Source of the DNA: Escherichia phage HEMP5
Sequence record: OR424388.1
DNA: 64,000 nucleotides
Reading direction: 5' to 3' (one strand)
In this document: one piece after another, positions 40,024 through 44,943 of the stretch
Layout: each line of letters starts with the position of its first letter
Numbering within the stretch: position 1 is the first letter of the stretch
Program-made: the position numbers and the translations under genes
Notes under the pieces: model-generated
Databases searched by the model: none
What the model saw: only the letters and a program-made list of their open reading frames with translations
Told to the model about the DNA's origin: nothing

Positions 40024-40410
40024 TTATTCGAGGGAAAGAAGATATTTGCTCTGGTAAAACATCCCAGTAATATCATCTATCGTGCTTTGAATAGCTGGAG
40101 GCATTTCTTTATAAATGCTGTTAGATTGGTCTAGTATGTGATCAATCATTCTAATTGTGTCGGTAGGAAGTTTACTGGCATCTGGAATAGAAGGCGTGTA
40201 TTTTCTACCAGAATACCCCAAATATTGCTCACCAAATTTATCAATCAAATCTGGCAACTCAGAGAAAATAAAATCGTATGCTTTGTGTCTAGCATAACTT
40301 TTAGTTTCAAAATGCGCAGAATGAAAATAAGCTTGTGCAGCCATTAATAAACCTAAGTATTCATCTGCCTTTGAAGGTTTTCCACTTTGTGAAAAGTCGC
40401 TGAATTTCAT
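40024..40410 (-). CDS. rI.-1: Conserved hypothetical protein adjacent to rI (128 aa)
   Basis: ORF track. ATGA overlap with the rI stop. Position as in T4. Confidence 0.8.
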
Positions 40411-40700
40411 TCAGTCTCCAATTTAATGTTCATAATTCTAGCGTATGATTGTGCCATCTCCGCGCCTCGTTCTATACATTCAAAATCGGAAGAGCACGGG
40501 TCATTTTTATAAGTCGTTCGCATAAAACTATAGAACTGTTCAGATGATTCTACGCTTTTATTTTCAAAAAGCATATAAACGTGTCTAATACCAGATTCCA
40601 TAAATTTATCAAAATGAGGATCGACATTCGCTTCAATTGGTGGAGATAAAGCAAACGCTAATCCTAGCATGGCAAATAGTGCCGTTGCTTTTAAGGCCAT
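40407..40700 (-). CDS. rI: Lysis-inhibition regulator RI (antiholin)
   Basis: 97 aa, MALKATALFAMLGLAFALSPPIEANVDPHFDKFMESGIRHVYMLFENKS... Matches T4 RI. Confidence 0.95.
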   Translation of the reverse strand: MALKATALFAMLGLAFALSPPIEANVDPHFDKFMESGIRHVYMLFENKSVESSEQFYSFMRTTYKNDPCSSDFECIERGAEMAQSYARIMNIKLETE

Positions 40701-40712
40701 AAAGGCCTCCTA

Positions 40713-40925
40713 TCATTTTTGTCCTGTATTTACTTTATGCCGATGCACGGCCTTAACTTTATCAAGGTATTTTTCAAAATTTCGCAATCTAGTATAGTCT
40801 GCCGGAGATTGGTTGAGTGATACTTCTCGACGCAAAGCTGAAATGATATTTCCAACTTCCCTACGAATTTCATCTAATTGAAGAACAGTAAGATTGCGAA
40901 GTTGCTTTTCAGTTAATTGTAGCAT
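40713..40925 (-). CDS. rI.1: Conserved hypothetical protein (70 aa)
   Basis: ORF track. Synteny between rI and tk. Confidence 0.78.
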
Positions 40926-40967
40926 ATATACCCCTTTAGTTAGATAAACCTATTTATAACTTTTGCA

Positions 40968-41549
40968 CTAACCGAGCTTTTTAGTTAATTCATTCCAATG
41001 TTTTCTACACAAAGAAACATAAATTTCATCACCAATACAGATTTGATTACCTTCTTTAACTGGTGTTCCATCTTCCATTAATCGAGCTGTCATAATAGCT
41101 TTTTTACCACAATGACAAACTGCCTTTAGTTCAATAAGTTTATCTGCAATCGCCAAAAGTTCTTTAGAACCTTCAAATAATTTTCCAGCGAAATCAGTCC
41201 TTAGCCCATAAGCCATAACAGGAACATTATATGTATCAACAATTCGACTTAATTGATGCACCTGTTCAGTTTTTAAAAACTGAGCTTCATCTACAAATAC
41301 ACAATGAATATCTTTTTGTGCTTCAGCCCATTTATAGAACTCAAAAATATCCATATCATCCGTAATAATATTCGCTTCCTGCTTAATTCCAATGCGAGAA
41401 ACGACTTCACAGACAGAATCGCGAGTATCAATAGCAGGCTTAAGAACTAATACACCCATTCCGCGTTCTTTATAATTATGTGCAGCAGTCAAAAGAGAAG
41501 CAGATTTTCCAGCATTCATTGCTGCGTAAGTAAAAATTAAACTCGCCAT
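40968..41549 (-). CDS. tk: Thymidine kinase
   Basis: 193 aa. P-loop MNAGKS and C-terminal zinc-binding cysteines CHCGKK...C..C. Confidence 0.96.
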   Translation of the reverse strand: MASLIFTYAAMNAGKSASLLTAAHNYKERGMGVLVLKPAIDTRDSVCEVVSRIGIKQEANIITDDMDIFEFYKWAEAQKDIHCVFVDEAQFLKTEQVHQLSRIVDTYNVPVMAYGLRTDFAGKLFEGSKELLAIADKLIELKAVCHCGKKAIMTARLMEDGTPVKEGNQICIGDEIYVSLCRKHWNELTKKLG

Positions 41550-41558
41550 ATCACCTTC

Positions 41559-41744
41559 TTAAAGCATATTCACATAAGCTATTAATTCGTTTTCTTTCTT
41601 ATCAAACCGATCAGCAAATTCTTCCTGGTGTTCGGGAGATAGCGGGCCGTATTCATCATAAAAGGTGTTTGCTTCTGTATGCTCATCTAGAAGTTCATGG
41701 ATAAGCTCAAACAATTTATCTTTTTGTTCTTTACTCAGACTCAT
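41559..41744 (-). CDS. tk.1: Small acidic protein (61 aa)
   Basis: ORF track. Confidence 0.75.
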   Translation of the reverse strand: MSLSKEQKDKLFELIHELLDEHTEANTFYDEYGPLSPEHQEEFADRFDKKENELIAYVNML

Positions 41745-41914
41745 ATATTAATTTCCAGAAGTTTTAAAATAATTCGCTTTTGCTTAAATATTTCCATAGT
41801 TAAATGATCAGTATCTTTTTGACCAATTCCGATGGCAAAACCTTTATTAACAGCGAGTTCAATTAAATTATCAAGCTCACGTAACACTTCATATTGTAAC
41901 TCAGAACTATTCAT
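41741..41914 (-). CDS. Small protein (57 aa)
   Basis: Hand translation MNSSELQYEVLRELDNLIELAVNKGFAIGIGQKDTDHLTMEIFKQKRIILKLLEINI. ATGA overlaps at both ends. Confidence 0.6.
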   Translation of the reverse strand: MNSSELQYEVLRELDNLIELAVNKGFAIGIGQKDTDHLTMEIFKQKRIILKLLEINI

Positions 41915-42117
41915 TTTGGTTTACCTTCTTTAACAAAATCGGGATAAGGATAAAATCCTGAATAAAATCCTTCACCTTTATGATTAATGCATCCTTTATT
42001 AGAGCAATAGCACCAATAATCGAAATCACAAGCCATTTCATCATTGCATAAAGCAAAAACAACTGGCCATTTACACTTTTCACAATGTGCATTTTTAAGA
42101 ATGCTAATTTGGCTCAT
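41911..42117 (-). CDS. Cysteine-rich small protein (68 aa), probable zinc binder
   Basis: ORF track 41911..42138. The ATG at 42117 forms an ATGA overlap with the upstream stop. Eight Cys (CEKC...CND..C...CYC...C). Confidence 0.68.
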   Translation of the reverse strand: MSQISILKNAHCEKCKWPVVFALCNDEMACDFDYWCYCSNKGCINHKGEGFYSGFYPYPDFVKEGKPK

Positions 42118-42326
42118 AACCATGTAACCTTTAAGCAATATTCTTCTACATGCTGTTTACGACCTTTCTTATCAATAAAGGTATATTCAACGAATGTTCC
42201 AATATAGTCTTTATCTACATCATGTGGACTATTAATTGGGCATTTAGTACGGCAAATGCGTTCCCATTGACGAATAATTTCCACTTTGTTTTTAGGATCA
42301 AACGGATGCGGGTAATGTGCTTTCAT
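42114..42326 (-). CDS. Hypothetical protein (70 aa)
   Basis: ORF track. Confidence 0.68.
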   Translation of the reverse strand: MKAHYPHPFDPKNKVEIIRQWERICRTKCPINSPHDVDKDYIGTFVEYTFIDKKGRKQHVEEYCLKVTWL

Positions 42327-42777
42327 AATCCACCACTATTAAATCAATATCAGGAGTAAACATGTCGATTAATTTAGAAACCTTATCCCAATCACCGCCA
42401 GCAATACCACAACCTATGCGTGGAATGTAAATTACTGGTTTAAACAAAAGGGTTTCTGCCTGTAGATTTAATTCTATCATGCAGTTTACTAAAGCACCAT
42501 AATCAAGATTAGGACCTGGTTCGTATTGTGTATACAGGTTATAGCATATACCAAATCCTGTAGGATTATGTTTAAAAACAATAGACATATCACCTAATTT
42601 ATCACGAGAACCGTACTCAGTAGTGGTTTTATCTATTTCTAAAATTTTAGGATAGGCCCTTGCTAATTGACCTGCTACACCTGAACCCATAGTATGAAAG
42701 CAGTTGCACCCATGCGCAATAATATTACCTTGAAGAAATAGGGCGACAATATCGCCCTTGATATATTTTACAATCAT
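42298..42777 (-). CDS. Macro-domain protein (ADP-ribose binding/hydrolase fold), 159 aa
   Basis: ORF track. Motifs AHGCNCFHTMGSGVAGQL and IPRIGCGIAGGDW are typical of macro domains. Confidence 0.75.
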   Translation of the reverse strand: MIVKYIKGDIVALFLQGNIIAHGCNCFHTMGSGVAGQLARAYPKILEIDKTTTEYGSRDKLGDMSIVFKHNPTGFGICYNLYTQYEPGPNLDYGALVNCMIELNLQAETLLFKPVIYIPRIGCGIAGGDWDKVSKLIDMFTPDIDLIVVDYESTLPASV

Positions 42778-43115
42778 CTAGTACTCAATCCTCGATTATA
42801 AGAATCTACCAAACGGTCAACCATTGAATGACAAGCGGCTTTATCTTTCTCCTCCGCAACTGAACATTCTAAGGTATTCCACTTTTTAGCATATCGTTTT
42901 AATAAAGTATCATTTTTGTATCTGCTTGATTTATCTCTTTCTCCGTCTTTATATGCATATATTAATTTCTGCGCAAATTCAGCTTGGCATGCTTTATTTT
43001 TCCCGCAATAATCCGCGGCAGTACGGTTTACATACTCTCTAATTTCAGTATATGATGTATTTGCTAACGCAGAAAATGAAATTAATCCTATACATAAAAC
43101 CAAAATTTTAGTCAT
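42774..43115 (-). CDS. vs: Vs, modifier of host valyl-tRNA synthetase (assignment by position)
   Basis: 113 aa with an N-terminal hydrophobic signal-like segment. Located between the tk.x genes and vs.1/regB as in T4. Confidence 0.7.
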   Translation of the reverse strand: MTKILVLCIGLISFSALANTSYTEIREYVNRTAADYCGKNKACQAEFAQKLIYAYKDGERDKSSRYKNDTLLKRYAKKWNTLECSVAEEKDKAACHSMVDRLVDSYNRGLSTR

Positions 43116-43653
43116 TTACTATTTCCAGTAGTTTATTATTTTTAAGGTAGTTAGCCTTTTCTAGGACTTCAGAAGCATATTTAGAACCTGCTTTAACATT
43201 CCATCCCGAATTATAAGAGGATATTGCCTTTCTTATATCACCCTTATGTATATTTAACCAATAAGAAAGTTCAATGTACGCCCAGGAAGCTGAATTGGAC
43301 CGTTTATTCAACATTCTTTTTATTTCAGCATCGGTCATATTATAACCAAGTTCCTTAACTCTTGCTCGCATTGTCGGCAAATAATTTTGGAACATTCCGT
43401 AGGCATGATGCTTTGGTTTAGATTTTAAATTAACTCCGGCAGAGCTTTCTTGCCATAAAATAGCAGCCATTATATGACCTAATCCGCTCTTGTGGATATT
43501 TTTGTGTGTTTTATATTTTCCATCCTTAGAAAATTGTTCCCCGAATTGATACGCGTAACGCATGTTATCGAGTTGGACATTACTGAAAGTATGCTCGGAG
43601 CTATGCGCCATCATTGAAATGGCCAATAGACCAGCGAGTAGTGCTTTTCTCAT
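43108..43653 (-). CDS. vs.1: Secreted lytic transglycosylase-like protein (SLT fold)
   Basis: 181 aa. Signal peptide MRKALLAGLLAISMMAHS. Motifs WQESSAG, YGMFQ and YNSG. Confidence 0.8.
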   Translation of the reverse strand: MRKALLAGLLAISMMAHSSEHTFSNVQLDNMRYAYQFGEQFSKDGKYKTHKNIHKSGLGHIMAAILWQESSAGVNLKSKPKHHAYGMFQNYLPTMRARVKELGYNMTDAEIKRMLNKRSNSASWAYIELSYWLNIHKGDIRKAISSYNSGWNVKAGSKYASEVLEKANYLKNNKLLEIVND

Positions 43654-43660
43654 GCTTACC

Positions 43661-44122
43661 TCATTGAGTTTTAATTACTGCTTTAGAAGCCTTTCCTGGT
43701 AAACGACGACTGTTAATAATTGCCATCCTGCACTGAAGTGACGGGTCTTTGAACTTCGCATTAGGTTTACAAACTGTAAATCCAAGCCAAAGATTTCCAT
43801 CTGTGATTTCTAAACGTCCAGGACGATATTCAACCCCATCAATAAAATCCTCATTAATGTCAGGACGCGGAGGCATACTTAGGAATTCATTAACTTCTAA
43901 AACATGGTCTTTTATTTTATGGAATAATTCAAAAACATATGTCTCATCAATCTCCCGTTGAATTGCACGATCAAGAAGATGTTGAGAATATTTTAGATGA
44001 AACGATGAGACCCCTGCTGCTTTTGATGCCTCACGAATCTCATTGTTAATTTGACGAAACTCCGACTCAAAGTGACGACGGAGCTTATTTCGACGGATAA
44101 AAACTTCTGTGTTGATAGTCAT
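43661..44122 (-). CDS. regB: RegB endoribonuclease (GGAG-specific)
   Basis: 153 aa, MTINTEVFIRRNKLRRHFESEFRQINNEIREASKAAGVSSFHLKYSQHLLDRAIQ... Matches T4 RegB. Confidence 0.95.
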   Translation of the reverse strand: MTINTEVFIRRNKLRRHFESEFRQINNEIREASKAAGVSSFHLKYSQHLLDRAIQREIDETYVFELFHKIKDHVLEVNEFLSMPPRPDINEDFIDGVEYRPGRLEITDGNLWLGFTVCKPNAKFKDPSLQCRMAIINSRRLPGKASKAVIKTQ

Positions 44123-44149
44123 GTTATTCTCCTCTTAACTGATAGAAAA

Positions 44150-44179
44150 ATTATACCACAGTCAAGAGGAAAAGTAAAC
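44150..44179 (-). promoter_or_regulatory. T4-type early promoter for regB
   Basis: Minus strand TGTTTAC-N17-(G)GTATAAT, then a GAGGAG Shine-Dalgarno. Confidence 0.78.
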
Positions 44180-44181
44180 AG

Positions 44182-44463
44182 TTATTCTTTAAATCTAATC
44201 AATTTATTCATAGACTTTGAAACTTCTGCACGAACCTCATGTAGGTTTTTAAGCTGTTCAAGACGCTGCTCATAGTAAGCAATTTCATCTTCTTCGAGAC
44301 AGTCCTGTGAATCTTCTTTAAGATAACTCGCATAATCCTGGAAAGCTTTACGAACTACTTCCTGGAAGTCATCAAGACTTTGAATTTTCTTAGGAGCAAC
44401 AGATACACGACGAGGGGCAGCAGTATAATACTCATAACCAAACCCTGCGCTTAATTGAGCCAT
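44182..44463 (-). CDS. vs.3: Conserved hypothetical protein (93 aa)
   Basis: ORF track 44182..44505. The ATG at 44463 ([13 protein letters not shown]...) overlaps the vs.4 stop (TAATG). Confidence 0.72.
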
Positions 44464-44729
44464 TAATATTTTTCCTCTGGTTGGAACACAGCACGACAAG
44501 CCCACATACTGGCTTCTTTGAGTTTCGTTTTAGCAATAGTTAACTGATCGAGGCTTTCAGCATAATTCTTCGCGAATTCACAGTCTTCACAATTATCTAG
44601 TGCTTCCCAGAATTCATCATATAAAGCGTCAAAGATAAATCCTAAACGAACTTCAGCATCTTTGATAGCATTTACTTTACCGATTTTTTCGTCGGTATGT
44701 GGCTTATAACCTTTAACATCTTCAATCAT
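44463..44729 (-). CDS. vs.4: Vs.4 / Acb2-family cyclic-oligonucleotide sponge (anti-CBASS)
   Basis: ORF track 44463..44765 begins at a TTG. The ATG at 44729 gives 88 aa: [44 protein letters not shown]... Position is two genes after regB. Confidence 0.8.
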
Positions 44730-44943
44730 ATTTGACTTCCTCACCAGTACATAAATCGTATTCAACTAAACGAATAGGTTCATGAATGCCATATCCCTGA
44801 ACAGAAATTTCTGTCGTAGGATAAATTCCATTAATATCACCCATGTTCCACGCTTCATTAAATTGCTGTTCGCCTGAATTACTAAACCACTCGGCGAAAG
44901 CATTTAGCACATCTTCAGAACCTTCAATAATTATCTTTGCCAT
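44722..44943 (-). CDS. vs.5: Conserved hypothetical protein (73 aa)
   Basis: ORF track. Confidence 0.75.
   Translation of the reverse strand: MAKIIIEGSEDVLNAFAEWFSNSGEQQFNEAWNMGDINGIYPTTEISVQGYGIHEPIRLVEYDLCTGEEVKYD

What the first reader, a model, noticed from the sequence alone, without database searches (positions are those of the whole stretch)
42298..42777. Phage macro-domain protein in the tk-vs interval
The 159-aa ORF has the two glycine-rich loops typical of macro domains (NCFHTMGSGVAGQL and RIGCGIAGGDW). T-even phages encode their own ADP-ribosyltransferases (Alt, ModA, ModB). Bacteria deploy ADP-ribosylating or NAD-derived-signal defences such as DarT and Thoeris-type signals. A phage macro domain could reverse ADP-ribosylation or degrade ADP-ribose-derived signals. 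It is preceded by a Cys-rich 68-aa ORF and a 70-aa ORF with overlapping junctions, which suggests co-translation.
Basis: partly seen in the sequence, partly recalled or inferred. Interest (0 to 1): 0.5.

Follow-up and report, generated by a model that had tools for sequence, protein, structure and literature searches.

The report
T4-type phage macrodomain anti-DarT2 gene (tk.4/adfM)
This is the tk.4 gene of a T4-like phage, a small macrodomain enzyme that most likely strips ADP-ribose off thymidines in phage DNA to defeat the bacterial DarTG2 defence; that role was shown genetically for T4 in 2025, so the finding is correct but already known.

Summary
The 159-aa ORF at 42298-42777 (minus strand) is real and is a macrodomain: Pfam Macro scores above its cut-off, the AlphaFold model has pLDDT 94.8, and the best PDB folds are TARG1, Poa1p, BT1257 and DarG. 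The window is a Tequatrovirus, and the ORF sits where T4 has tk.4, between vs and tk.3.

A 2025 preprint showed that a T4 tk.4 knockout becomes sensitive to DarTG2 and renamed the gene adfM. The Thoeris idea has no support.

Three details are not in that preprint:
- **Active site.** The catalytic Lys of DarG and TARG1 is an invariant Gln (Q84) here and in T4 Tk.4. SCO6735, which cleaves thymidine-linked ADP-ribose, has an essential Gln at this position. The phage family lacks SCO6735's long mobile loop.
- **Foreign allele.** This copy is only 58% identical to T4 Tk.4, although the flanking genes are 93-99% identical to T4. It is 93% identical to the Dhakavirus phage dhaeg, so the gene body was swapped between genera.
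- **Gene order.** The 70-aa and Cys-rich ORFs lie downstream of the macro gene, not before it.

No biochemistry exists for either Tk.4 allele.

The parts
42298..42777 (-). Macrodomain gene, 159 aa. It is the positional orthologue of T4 tk.4 (adfM), in a Dhakavirus-like allele.
   Evidence: The ORF is listed. Pfam Macro gives 33.1 bits. The AF2 model has pLDDT 94.8. Foldseek top hits are TARG1, Poa1p, BT1257 and DarG. Identity is 58% to T4 Tk.4 and 93% to phage dhaeg tk.4.
42664..42705 (-). Loop 1, residues 25-38 (NCFHTMGSGVAGQL), the phosphate-binding Gly loop. H22 and N25 lie just upstream or at its start and correspond to SCO6735 H24 and N27.
   Evidence: Alignments are. H22, G23, N25, C26, G33 and A35 are invariant in 57 homologues. 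SCO6735 residue numbering was derived.
42526..42528 (-). Codon of Gln84, at the position of the catalytic Lys of DarG (K80) and TARG1 (K84). It is equivalent to the essential Gln85 of SCO6735.
   Evidence: The residue alignment is. Q84 is invariant in the family. The SCO6735 Q85A/E loss of activity is from PMC9411070.
42388..42420 (-). Loop 2, residues 120-130 (RIGCGIAGGDW), the substrate-binding Gly loop. A126 sits at the position of TARG1 D125.
   Evidence: Alignments are. P119, G122, G124 and W130 are invariant.
42290..42740 (-). Divergent cassette. The body of the gene is 30-75% identical to T4 DNA, while the flanks are about 93-100% identical. The exchange junctions lie in the conserved first ~37 codons and at the start of tk.3.
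   Evidence: The 30-nt sliding identity against T4 is.
42740..42758 (-). GC-rich hairpin AGGGCGA-TATTG-TCGCCCT inside codons 7-13 of the macro gene. Its DNA is conserved across three genera.
   Evidence: The terminator-like scan is. Both stem arms are identical in six loci, including synonymous sites, and only one loop base varies. The RNA fold is -14.3 kcal/mol with z = -1.83.
42774..43115 (-). vs (valyl-tRNA synthetase modifier), the upstream neighbour. Its stop codon overlaps the macro start as ATGA.
   Evidence: It is 97-98% identical to T4 vs.
42114..42326 (-). tk.3 homologue (70 aa, DUF7202), the downstream neighbour. It overlaps the macro 3' end by 29 nt.
   Evidence: Pfam DUF7202 gives 1.8e-37. 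It is 93% identical to T4 tk.3.
41911..42117 (-). Cys-rich 68-aa ORF (phage zinc-binding domain), further downstream. It is absent from T4 at this position.
   Evidence: Pfam Phage_zn_bind gives 1.2e-28 and covers residues 8-75 of the 75-aa reading. There is no T4 match. It is 69% identical to the dhaeg ORF.

Best explanation
The gene encodes a stand-alone macrodomain ADP-ribosyl glycohydrolase of the ALC1/TARG1-like class. It is expressed from the vs.1-vs-tk.4-tk.3 gene string of a T4-like phage. When a host DarT2 toxin ADP-ribosylates thymidine N3 in single-stranded DNA, which blocks phage replication, this enzyme most likely removes the ADP-ribose. It would thus act as an orphan antitoxin against DarTG2.

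Catalysis probably does not use the Lys of DarG or TARG1. It more likely follows the SCO6735 type, where a Gln (here Q84), together with H22 and N25, positions the substrate and an activated water.

What is shown: the fold, the class, the synteny, the residue equivalences and the allele exchange. What is published for T4 only: the anti-DarTG2 phenotype. What is inferred: that this 58%-identical allele does the same, that it acts by hydrolysis, and that it uses the Gln mechanism.
For: **Fold and class.**
- Pfam Macro scores above its cut-off.
- PDB sequence hits are BT1257 1.6e-10, Poa1p, SCO6735, DarG 4.8e-5 and TARG1. They are stronger with a family profile.
- The AF2 model has pLDDT 94.8 and pTM 0.89.
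- The Foldseek top hits are all TARG1, Poa1p, BT1257 or DarG, with probability 1.00.
- The only match in the defence-system library is the macro part of DarG.

**Orthology.** The ORF occupies the same slot between vs and tk.3 as T4 tk.4 and is 58% identical over its full length.

**Function of the orthologue.**
- A T4 tk.4 knockout is sensitised to DarTG2, and tk.4 was the single screen hit.
- T4 lacking adfA and adfN stays resistant to DarTG2, so another factor was expected.

**Mechanism.**
- Q84, H22 and N25 are invariant in 57 homologues and align with SCO6735 Q85, H24 and N27.
- SCO6735 cleaves DarT-made dT-ADPr, and its Q85A mutant is dead.
- A different phage macrodomain, PhiKZ gp104, was shown in vitro to remove ADP-ribose from DarT2-modified TNTC DNA.
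Against: - No Tk.4-type protein has been assayed biochemically. The T4 evidence is genetic only.
- This allele differs from the tested T4 allele at 42% of residues, including loop 2 (IGCGIAGGDW against IGAGIGKGNW).
- The DNA-binding lysines tested in SCO6735 (K34, K89) are not conserved. K34 aligns with Ser32, and K89 lies in a loop that the phage proteins lack.
- The DarG catalytic Lys is absent.
- GenBank annotators call the gene a 'phosphatase' (A1pp).
Confidence: 0.75

Rival explanations
1. It protects against DarT2 without catalysis. It would bind and block DarT2, or shield ADP-ribosylated DNA.
For: A catalytically dead SCO6735 (Q85A) still inhibits DarT in vitro, more strongly than DarG or TARG1. 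ICP1 AdfB counters DarT by direct binding. The DarG/TARG1 catalytic Lys is missing here.
Against: The protein lacks the DarG C-terminal DarT-binding domain. It matches only positions 3-144 of the 329-position DarG model, and NCBIfam DarG gives 27.8 bits against a cut-off of 250. The residues needed for SCO6735 catalysis are invariant in the family. That is hard to explain for a pure binder.
Confidence: 0.08
2. It is an ADP-ribose-1''-phosphate phosphatase (Poa1p-like) or an O-acetyl-ADP-ribose deacetylase. It would clear soluble NAD-derived metabolites, as the GenBank label 'phosphatase' implies.
For: Yeast Poa1p is among the best sequence and fold matches. It shares the H-x-C-N-C motif in the first loop. 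The A1pp annotation dates from 2006.
Against: The T4 knockout phenotype is specific to DarTG2, and tk.4 was otherwise non-essential. From general knowledge, T4's own RNA repair (Pnkp/Rnl) does not produce Appr>p. The closest bacterial relatives (the SCO6735/BT1257 type) act on nucleic-acid-linked ADP-ribose.
Confidence: 0.05
3. Its main substrate is another ADP-ribose conjugate. Candidates are N3-uridine ADP-ribosylated RNA, ADP-ribosylated protein (including products of the phage's own Alt/ModA/ModB), or Thoeris-type cyclic ADP-ribose signals.
For: TARG1, DarG and SCO6735 also reverse uracil-linked RNA ADP-ribosylation. SCO6735 has some activity on ADP-ribosylated PARP1. Macro domains are versatile and are very common in large phages.
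Against: Wild-type T4, which carries tk.4, is strongly restricted by the mRNA ADP-ribosyltransferase CmdTAC, so adenine-linked RNA ADP-ribose is not reversed. From general knowledge, Alt/ModA/ModB modify arginine, a linkage typically removed by ARH-type enzymes. None of the papers read links Tk.4 to Thoeris. The only phenotype on record is DarTG2.
Confidence: 0.1

Closest known systems
T4 Tk.4 / AdfM (anti-DarT factor Macrodomain; bioRxiv 10.1101/2025.11.20.689424)
   Same: It occupies the same slot between vs and tk.3, has a similar length (159 against 155 aa) and the same fold class. The invariant H22, N25, Q84, G122, G124 and W130 are all shared, and the first 37 residues are nearly identical.
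   Different: Identity is only 58%. Loop 2 and most of the C-terminal two thirds differ. This allele is 4 residues longer and overlaps tk.3 by 29 nt rather than 4. The allele in the window has not been tested.
SCO6735 (Streptomyces coelicolor) and Bt_1257, the Gln-type subclass of ALC1-like macrodomains (PMC9411070)
   Same: They are the best PDB sequence matches. They have Gln at the catalytic position and equivalent His and Asn. They are stand-alone, without a DarT partner. SCO6735 hydrolyses dT-ADPr DNA.
   Different: Identity is 26-27%. The phage family lacks the 5-6-residue longer 'mobile loop' that defines that subclass. It also lacks K34 and K89.
DarG macrodomain of DarTG2 (M. tuberculosis 5m3i, T. 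aquaticus 5m31)
   Same: It has the same fold and class. DarG is the only defence-library match. It has the same presumed substrate.
   Different: Identity is 20-23%. DarG uses Lys80 where this protein has Gln84. DarG has a C-terminal DarT-binding domain and is encoded next to darT. Neither applies here.
PhiKZ gp104, also named 'AdfM' (PMC13309987)
   Same: It is a phage-encoded stand-alone macrodomain that counters DarTG2. Hydrolysis of DarT2-modified DNA was shown in vitro.
   Different: It is DarG-like, with the Lys (FPTKDNW), and only about 22% identical, with a marginal BLASTP match. It is imported into the phage nucleus. It was probably acquired independently.
T4 AdfN (gp30.3, NADAR) (PMC11825919)
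   Same: It uses the same strategy: an orphan antitoxin-like DNA ADP-ribosyl glycohydrolase in T-even phages.
   Different: It has an unrelated fold. It acts on guanosine-linked ADP-ribose made by DarT1 and does not counter DarTG2.

Membership tests
Macro domain (Pfam PF01661) | A profile match above the curated cut-off | tested here: met
   33.1 bits against a cut-off of 22, covering residues 22-136 and profile positions 2-117 of 118.
Macro domain (Pfam PF01661) | An alpha/beta/alpha sandwich fold with two Gly-rich loops lining the ADP-ribose cleft | tested here: met
   The AF2 model has pLDDT 94.8. All 50 listed Foldseek PDB hits (probability 1.00) are macrodomains or designed hydrolases built on the TTHA0132-type scaffold that also matches directly. 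Both loops align with those of TARG1 and DarG.
ALC1/TARG1-like macrodomain class | Closest relatives are TARG1, DarG, SCO6735/Bt_1257, Poa1p and the ALC1 macro domain, not the MacroD or PARG classes | tested here: met
   The ranking of PDB hits by sequence and profile is, and by fold. The definition of the class is taken from PMC9411070. No phylogeny was computed.
DarG antitoxin (DarTG2) | A catalytic Lys (K80) in the macrodomain | tested here: not met
   It aligns with Gln84, which is invariant in the phage family.
DarG antitoxin (DarTG2) | A C-terminal DarT-binding domain, giving a full-length protein of about 330-360 aa | tested here: not met
   The protein is 159 aa. It matches only positions 3-144 of the 329-position PADLOC DarG model. 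NCBIfam antitoxin_DarG gives 27.8 bits against a cut-off of 250.
DarG antitoxin (DarTG2) | Encoded next to a darT toxin gene | tested here: not met
   The neighbours are vs, vs.1, regB, tk.3, a Zn-binding ORF and tk.
SCO6735/Bt_1257 subclass | Gln in place of the catalytic Lys, with the conserved His and Asn of loop 1 | tested here: met
   Q84, H22 and N25 align with Q85, H24 and N27.
SCO6735/Bt_1257 subclass | A 'mobile loop' five residues longer, following the Gln | tested here: not met
   BT1257 and SCO6735 carry a 5-6-residue insertion after QHG that the window protein, T4 Tk.4 and the other homologues in these alignments lack.
T4 Tk.4 / AdfM | Full-length homology and conserved position between vs and tk.3 in a Tevenvirinae genome | tested here: met
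   58% identity over 155 aa, E = 1e-70. Synteny is shown. The same arrangement occurs in Mosigvirus and Dhakavirus loci.
T4 Tk.4 / AdfM | Needed for plating on a DarTG2-expressing host | not testable with these tools
   This is shown only for the T4 allele.
Poa1p-type ADP-ribose-1''-phosphate phosphatase | Phosphatase activity on Appr1p | not testable with these tools
   The two share the H-x-C-N-C motif of loop 1, and the fold matches. Activity is unknown.

The most novel reading that the evidence does not exclude
Tk.4-type proteins form a distinct, phage-borne branch of the TARG1-like macrodomains: Gln-type active site, short loop, no DNA-binding lysines of the SCO6735 kind. Whole gene bodies of this branch are swapped between T-even genera. 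The allele classes (T4/Mosigvirus-type and window/Dhakavirus-type) would then differ in what they counter, for example different DarT2 variants, or N3-uridine RNA ADP-ribosylation in addition to thymidine.
Probability: 0.2. Interest if true: 0.45.

Novelty: already known. Interest (0 to 1): 0.22.

Why it matters
The gene shows that T-even phages carry layered countermeasures to DNA ADP-ribosylation: AdfA, AdfN (NADAR, for guanosine) and Tk.4/AdfM (macrodomain, for thymidine). That point is already published for T4.

The remaining value is modest.
- The Tk.4 family has the Gln-type active site, so it offers a second, simpler model for the lysine-independent mechanism proposed for SCO6735.
- The sharp between-genus replacement of just this gene body suggests selection on allele identity. 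That could be tested by swapping alleles in T4.

Tried and rejected
- **Promoter scan.** The sigma-70 scan of 40300-45500 found 17 sites against 21.1 expected from shuffles. The transcription unit could not be assigned from it.
- **Per-gene identity table in Python.** Loci L003-L006 were not exported to the script machine. The table was made with align_proteins instead.
- **PhiKZ 'AdfM' as a close relative.** Rejected: identity is about 22%, the BLASTP match is marginal, and it has the Lys-type active site.
- **ICP1 AdfB as an analogue.** It is a DarT binder, not a macrodomain hydrolase.
- **CmdTAC as an alternative target.** Rejected, because wild-type T4 is restricted by it.
- **Filing it as DarG.** Rejected on three defining features (see the membership test).
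- **dN/dS.** Not attempted. At 58% protein identity, synonymous sites are expected to be saturated.

Full report
**1. Observation.**
The ORF at 42298-42777 on the minus strand encodes 159 aa from an ATG. The two quoted motifs are residues 25-38 and 120-130. Pfam Macro (PF01661) matches residues 22-136 with 33.1 bits against a cut-off of 22. The protein has 779 homologues at E<=1e-5 in the large protein collection. tblastn finds it in 2777 of 50,697 phage records, mostly large myoviruses of enterobacteria, Pseudomonas, Vibrio, Acinetobacter and Aeromonas.

**2. Where we are.**
The 2.2-kb surroundings are 99.7% identical to Escherichia phages FL33 and FL34 and match about 750 T4-like records. 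Against phage T4 (NC_000866), the neighbours are rI, rI.1, tk, tk.3, vs, vs.1 and regB, at 93-100% protein identity. The ORF sits exactly where T4 has tk.4, between vs and tk.3.

All these genes are on the minus strand, so the order of transcription is regB, vs.1, vs, macro gene, tk.3, Zn-binding ORF, 57-aa ORF, tk.2-like ORF, tk. The 70-aa ORF (DUF7202, tk.3) and the Cys-rich ORF (Pfam Phage_zn_bind; 68 aa from the ATG at 42117) are therefore downstream of the macro gene, not before it.

- ATGA at vs/macro.
- 29 nt at macro/tk.3.
- ATGA at tk.3/Zn-ORF.

They are compatible with translational coupling, which was not tested. A sigma-70 consensus scan was uninformative, with 17 sites against 21 expected.

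**3. Fold and class.**
- phmmer against PDB sequences gives Bacteroides BT1257 (1.6e-10), yeast Poa1p (1.5e-9), Streptomyces SCO6735 (8.5e-8), M. tuberculosis DarG (4.8e-5) and human TARG1 (0.01).
- A profile of 57 homologues raises all of these: BT1257 5e-19, TARG1 4e-17, SCO6735 4e-15, DarG 6e-12.
- AlphaFold2 on that alignment gives pLDDT 94.8 and pTM 0.89, with a beta-alpha-beta layout.
- Foldseek against the PDB returns TARG1, Poa1p, BT1257 and DarG first, all at probability 1.00.
- In the defence-system library the only match is the N-terminal macro part of DarG, positions 3-144 of 329.
- NCBIfam's DarG equivalog scores 27.8 bits against a cut-off of 250.
- PHROGs places it in phrog_335, 'phosphatase'.

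The protein is a stand-alone macrodomain of the ALC1/TARG1-like class. It is not a DarG.

**4. Active site.**
I checked a recalled M. tuberculosis DarG sequence against the PDB. It is identical to 5m3i residues 11-161, and the same output gave the T. aquaticus DarG sequence.

In the alignments:
- The catalytic Lys of DarG (K80, FPTKKHW) and TARG1 (K84, LITKKRA) aligns with Gln84 of the window protein (LYTQYEP), with Gln in T4 Tk.4 (LYTQFQP), and with Gln in BT1257 and SCO6735 (MIGQHG).
- TARG1 D125 aligns with Ala126.
- Q84 is invariant in 57 homologues, as are H22, G23, N25, C26, G33, A35, D49, N80, Y82, P119, G122, G124 and W130.

The SCO6735 paper reports several relevant points (PMC9411070). 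Gln85 occupies the Lys position. The Q85A and Q85E mutants abolish activity. SCO6735 removes DarT-made thymidine-linked ADP-ribose faster than DarG or TARG1. The authors propose a water-activated mechanism. By my numbering, SCO6735 H24, N27 and Q85 correspond to H22, N25 and Q84 here.

Two things differ from SCO6735:
- The phage proteins lack the longer 'mobile loop' that the paper uses to define the SCO6735/Bt_1257 subclass.
- The lysines mutated there are not conserved. K34 aligns with Ser32, and K89 lies in the missing loop.

**5. Function: already published for T4.**
- The A1pp/macro domain of tk.4 was noted in 2006 (PMC1524935).
- T4 lacking adfA and adfN remains fully resistant to DarTG2, which suggested a further factor (PMC11825919).
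- The HIDEN-SEQ preprint (bioRxiv 10.1101/2025.11.20.689424, November 2025) found tk.4 as the single significant transposon hit on a DarTG2 host. It showed that a clean knockout is sensitised, noted structural similarity to M. tuberculosis DarG, and renamed the gene adfM. It reports no biochemistry.
- A separate paper showed that PhiKZ gp104, also called AdfM, removes ADP-ribose from DarT2-modified TNTC DNA in vitro (PMC13309987). I fetched gp104. It is DarG-like with the Lys (FPTKDNW) and only about 22% identical to the window protein. The two 'AdfM' proteins are different branches of the class.
- TARG1, DarG and SCO6735 also reverse N3-uridine ADP-ribosylation of RNA (PMC13036486).
- Wild-type T4 is strongly restricted by the adenine-directed mRNA ADP-ribosyltransferase CmdTAC (PMC11618068). 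Tk.4 therefore does not neutralise that modification.

**6. This copy is a foreign allele.**
The window protein is only 58% identical to T4 Tk.4. A 30-nt sliding comparison with T4 DNA shows identity falling to 30-75% between about 42290 and 42740, and returning to about 93-100% on both sides. The first ~37 codons are conserved.

Protein identity of the window genes to five reference loci:

| Gene | T4 (Tequatrovirus) | AlbertHofmann (Mosigvirus) | dhaeg (Dhakavirus) | UGJNEcP4 (Dhakavirus) | MX01 (Dhakavirus) |
|---|---|---|---|---|---|
| tk | 99 | 83 | 71 | 71 | 71 |
| tk.3 | 93 | 24 | 76 | not present | 76 |
| tk.4 | 58 | 59 | 93 | 74 | 77 |
| vs | 98 | 70 | 46 | 46 | 47 |
| vs.1 | 99 | 83 | 68 | 69 | 67 |

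The backbone is T4-like, but the macro gene body is Dhakavirus-like.

In the phage collection, 312 records carry the window type at >=90% identity. For the T4 type, 224 records are at >=90% and 159 at 80-90%. The tk.1-tk.2 segment is also replaced. The 61-aa ORF is 85% identical to dhaeg and 54% to T4 tk.2. The Zn-binding ORF is 69% identical to dhaeg and absent from T4.

Localised allele exchange of this kind fits a gene under conflict-driven selection, but that reading is an inference.

**7. Most likely mechanism.**
The protein is made from the vs.1-vs-tk.4 gene string during infection. It binds ADP-ribosylated single-stranded DNA and hydrolyses the N-glycosidic bond between ribose C1'' and thymine N3, which restores replicable DNA. 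The loop-1 residues H22 and N25 and the Gly loops hold the ADP-ribose. Q84 positions the distal ribose and a water.

- Shown here: fold, class, residue equivalence, synteny.
- Published for T4 only: the DarTG2 phenotype.
- Inferred: that this allele has the same activity, and the chemistry.

I put this at 0.75. The rivals are non-catalytic DarT inhibition (0.08), a soluble-metabolite phosphatase or deacetylase (0.05), and other ADP-ribose conjugates as the main substrate (0.10).

**8. Verdict.**
The finding is correct in observation and largely correct in interpretation, but the gene and its function are already known. Three things remain untested:
- The biochemistry of any Tk.4-type enzyme.
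- Whether the Gln-type active site without the mobile loop works as proposed for SCO6735.
- Whether the exchanged alleles differ in specificity.

Noticed in passing
window 42740-42758 (minus strand): There is a GC-rich hairpin, AGGGCGA-TATTG-TCGCCCT, in codons 7-13 of the macro gene. Both stem arms are identical, including synonymous sites, in T4, a Mosigvirus and three Dhakavirus loci, while neighbouring codons vary; only one loop base differs. The scan flags it as terminator-like, and some GenBank records annotate a terminator under this match. The fold is -14.3 kcal/mol with z = -1.83. There is no covariation to test, because the stem never varies.
   Followed up: partly
window 44463-44765 (minus strand): The vs.4 homologue matches Pfam Acb2_Tad1_hairpin (5.9e-19). 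It is therefore a cyclic-nucleotide sponge of the anti-CBASS type, lying 1.7 kb upstream of the anti-DarT2 macrodomain in the same gene string.
   Followed up: partly
window 41550-42777: The tk-vs interval is a patchwork. tk, tk.3 and vs are T4-like (93-99%). The 61-aa tk.2-like ORF (85%), the Zn-binding ORF (69%) and tk.4 (93%) are closest to the Dhakavirus phage dhaeg. T4 tk.1 is absent from the window.
   Followed up: yes
window 41741-41914 (minus strand): A 57-aa ORF (phrog_3452) has no counterpart in T4 or in the four other loci compared, at 21-25% identity. It has no significant Pfam match. It overlaps both neighbours by ATGA.
   Followed up: partly
window 42298-42326: The macro ORF runs 29 nt into tk.3 in another frame, giving a 4-residue C-terminal extension relative to T4. 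In T4 the two genes overlap by only 4 nt. The same 29-nt overlap is present in the Dhakavirus phages dhaeg and MX01.
   Followed up: partly
literature on T2 tk.4, orthologue of window 42298-42777: A 2026 preprint caught the T2 tk.4 mRNA paired with the host small RNA ArcZ by RIL-seq and detected the Tk.4 protein in infected cells. It mislabels the gene as a putative thymidine kinase (bioRxiv 10.64898/2026.06.19.733364).
   Followed up: no
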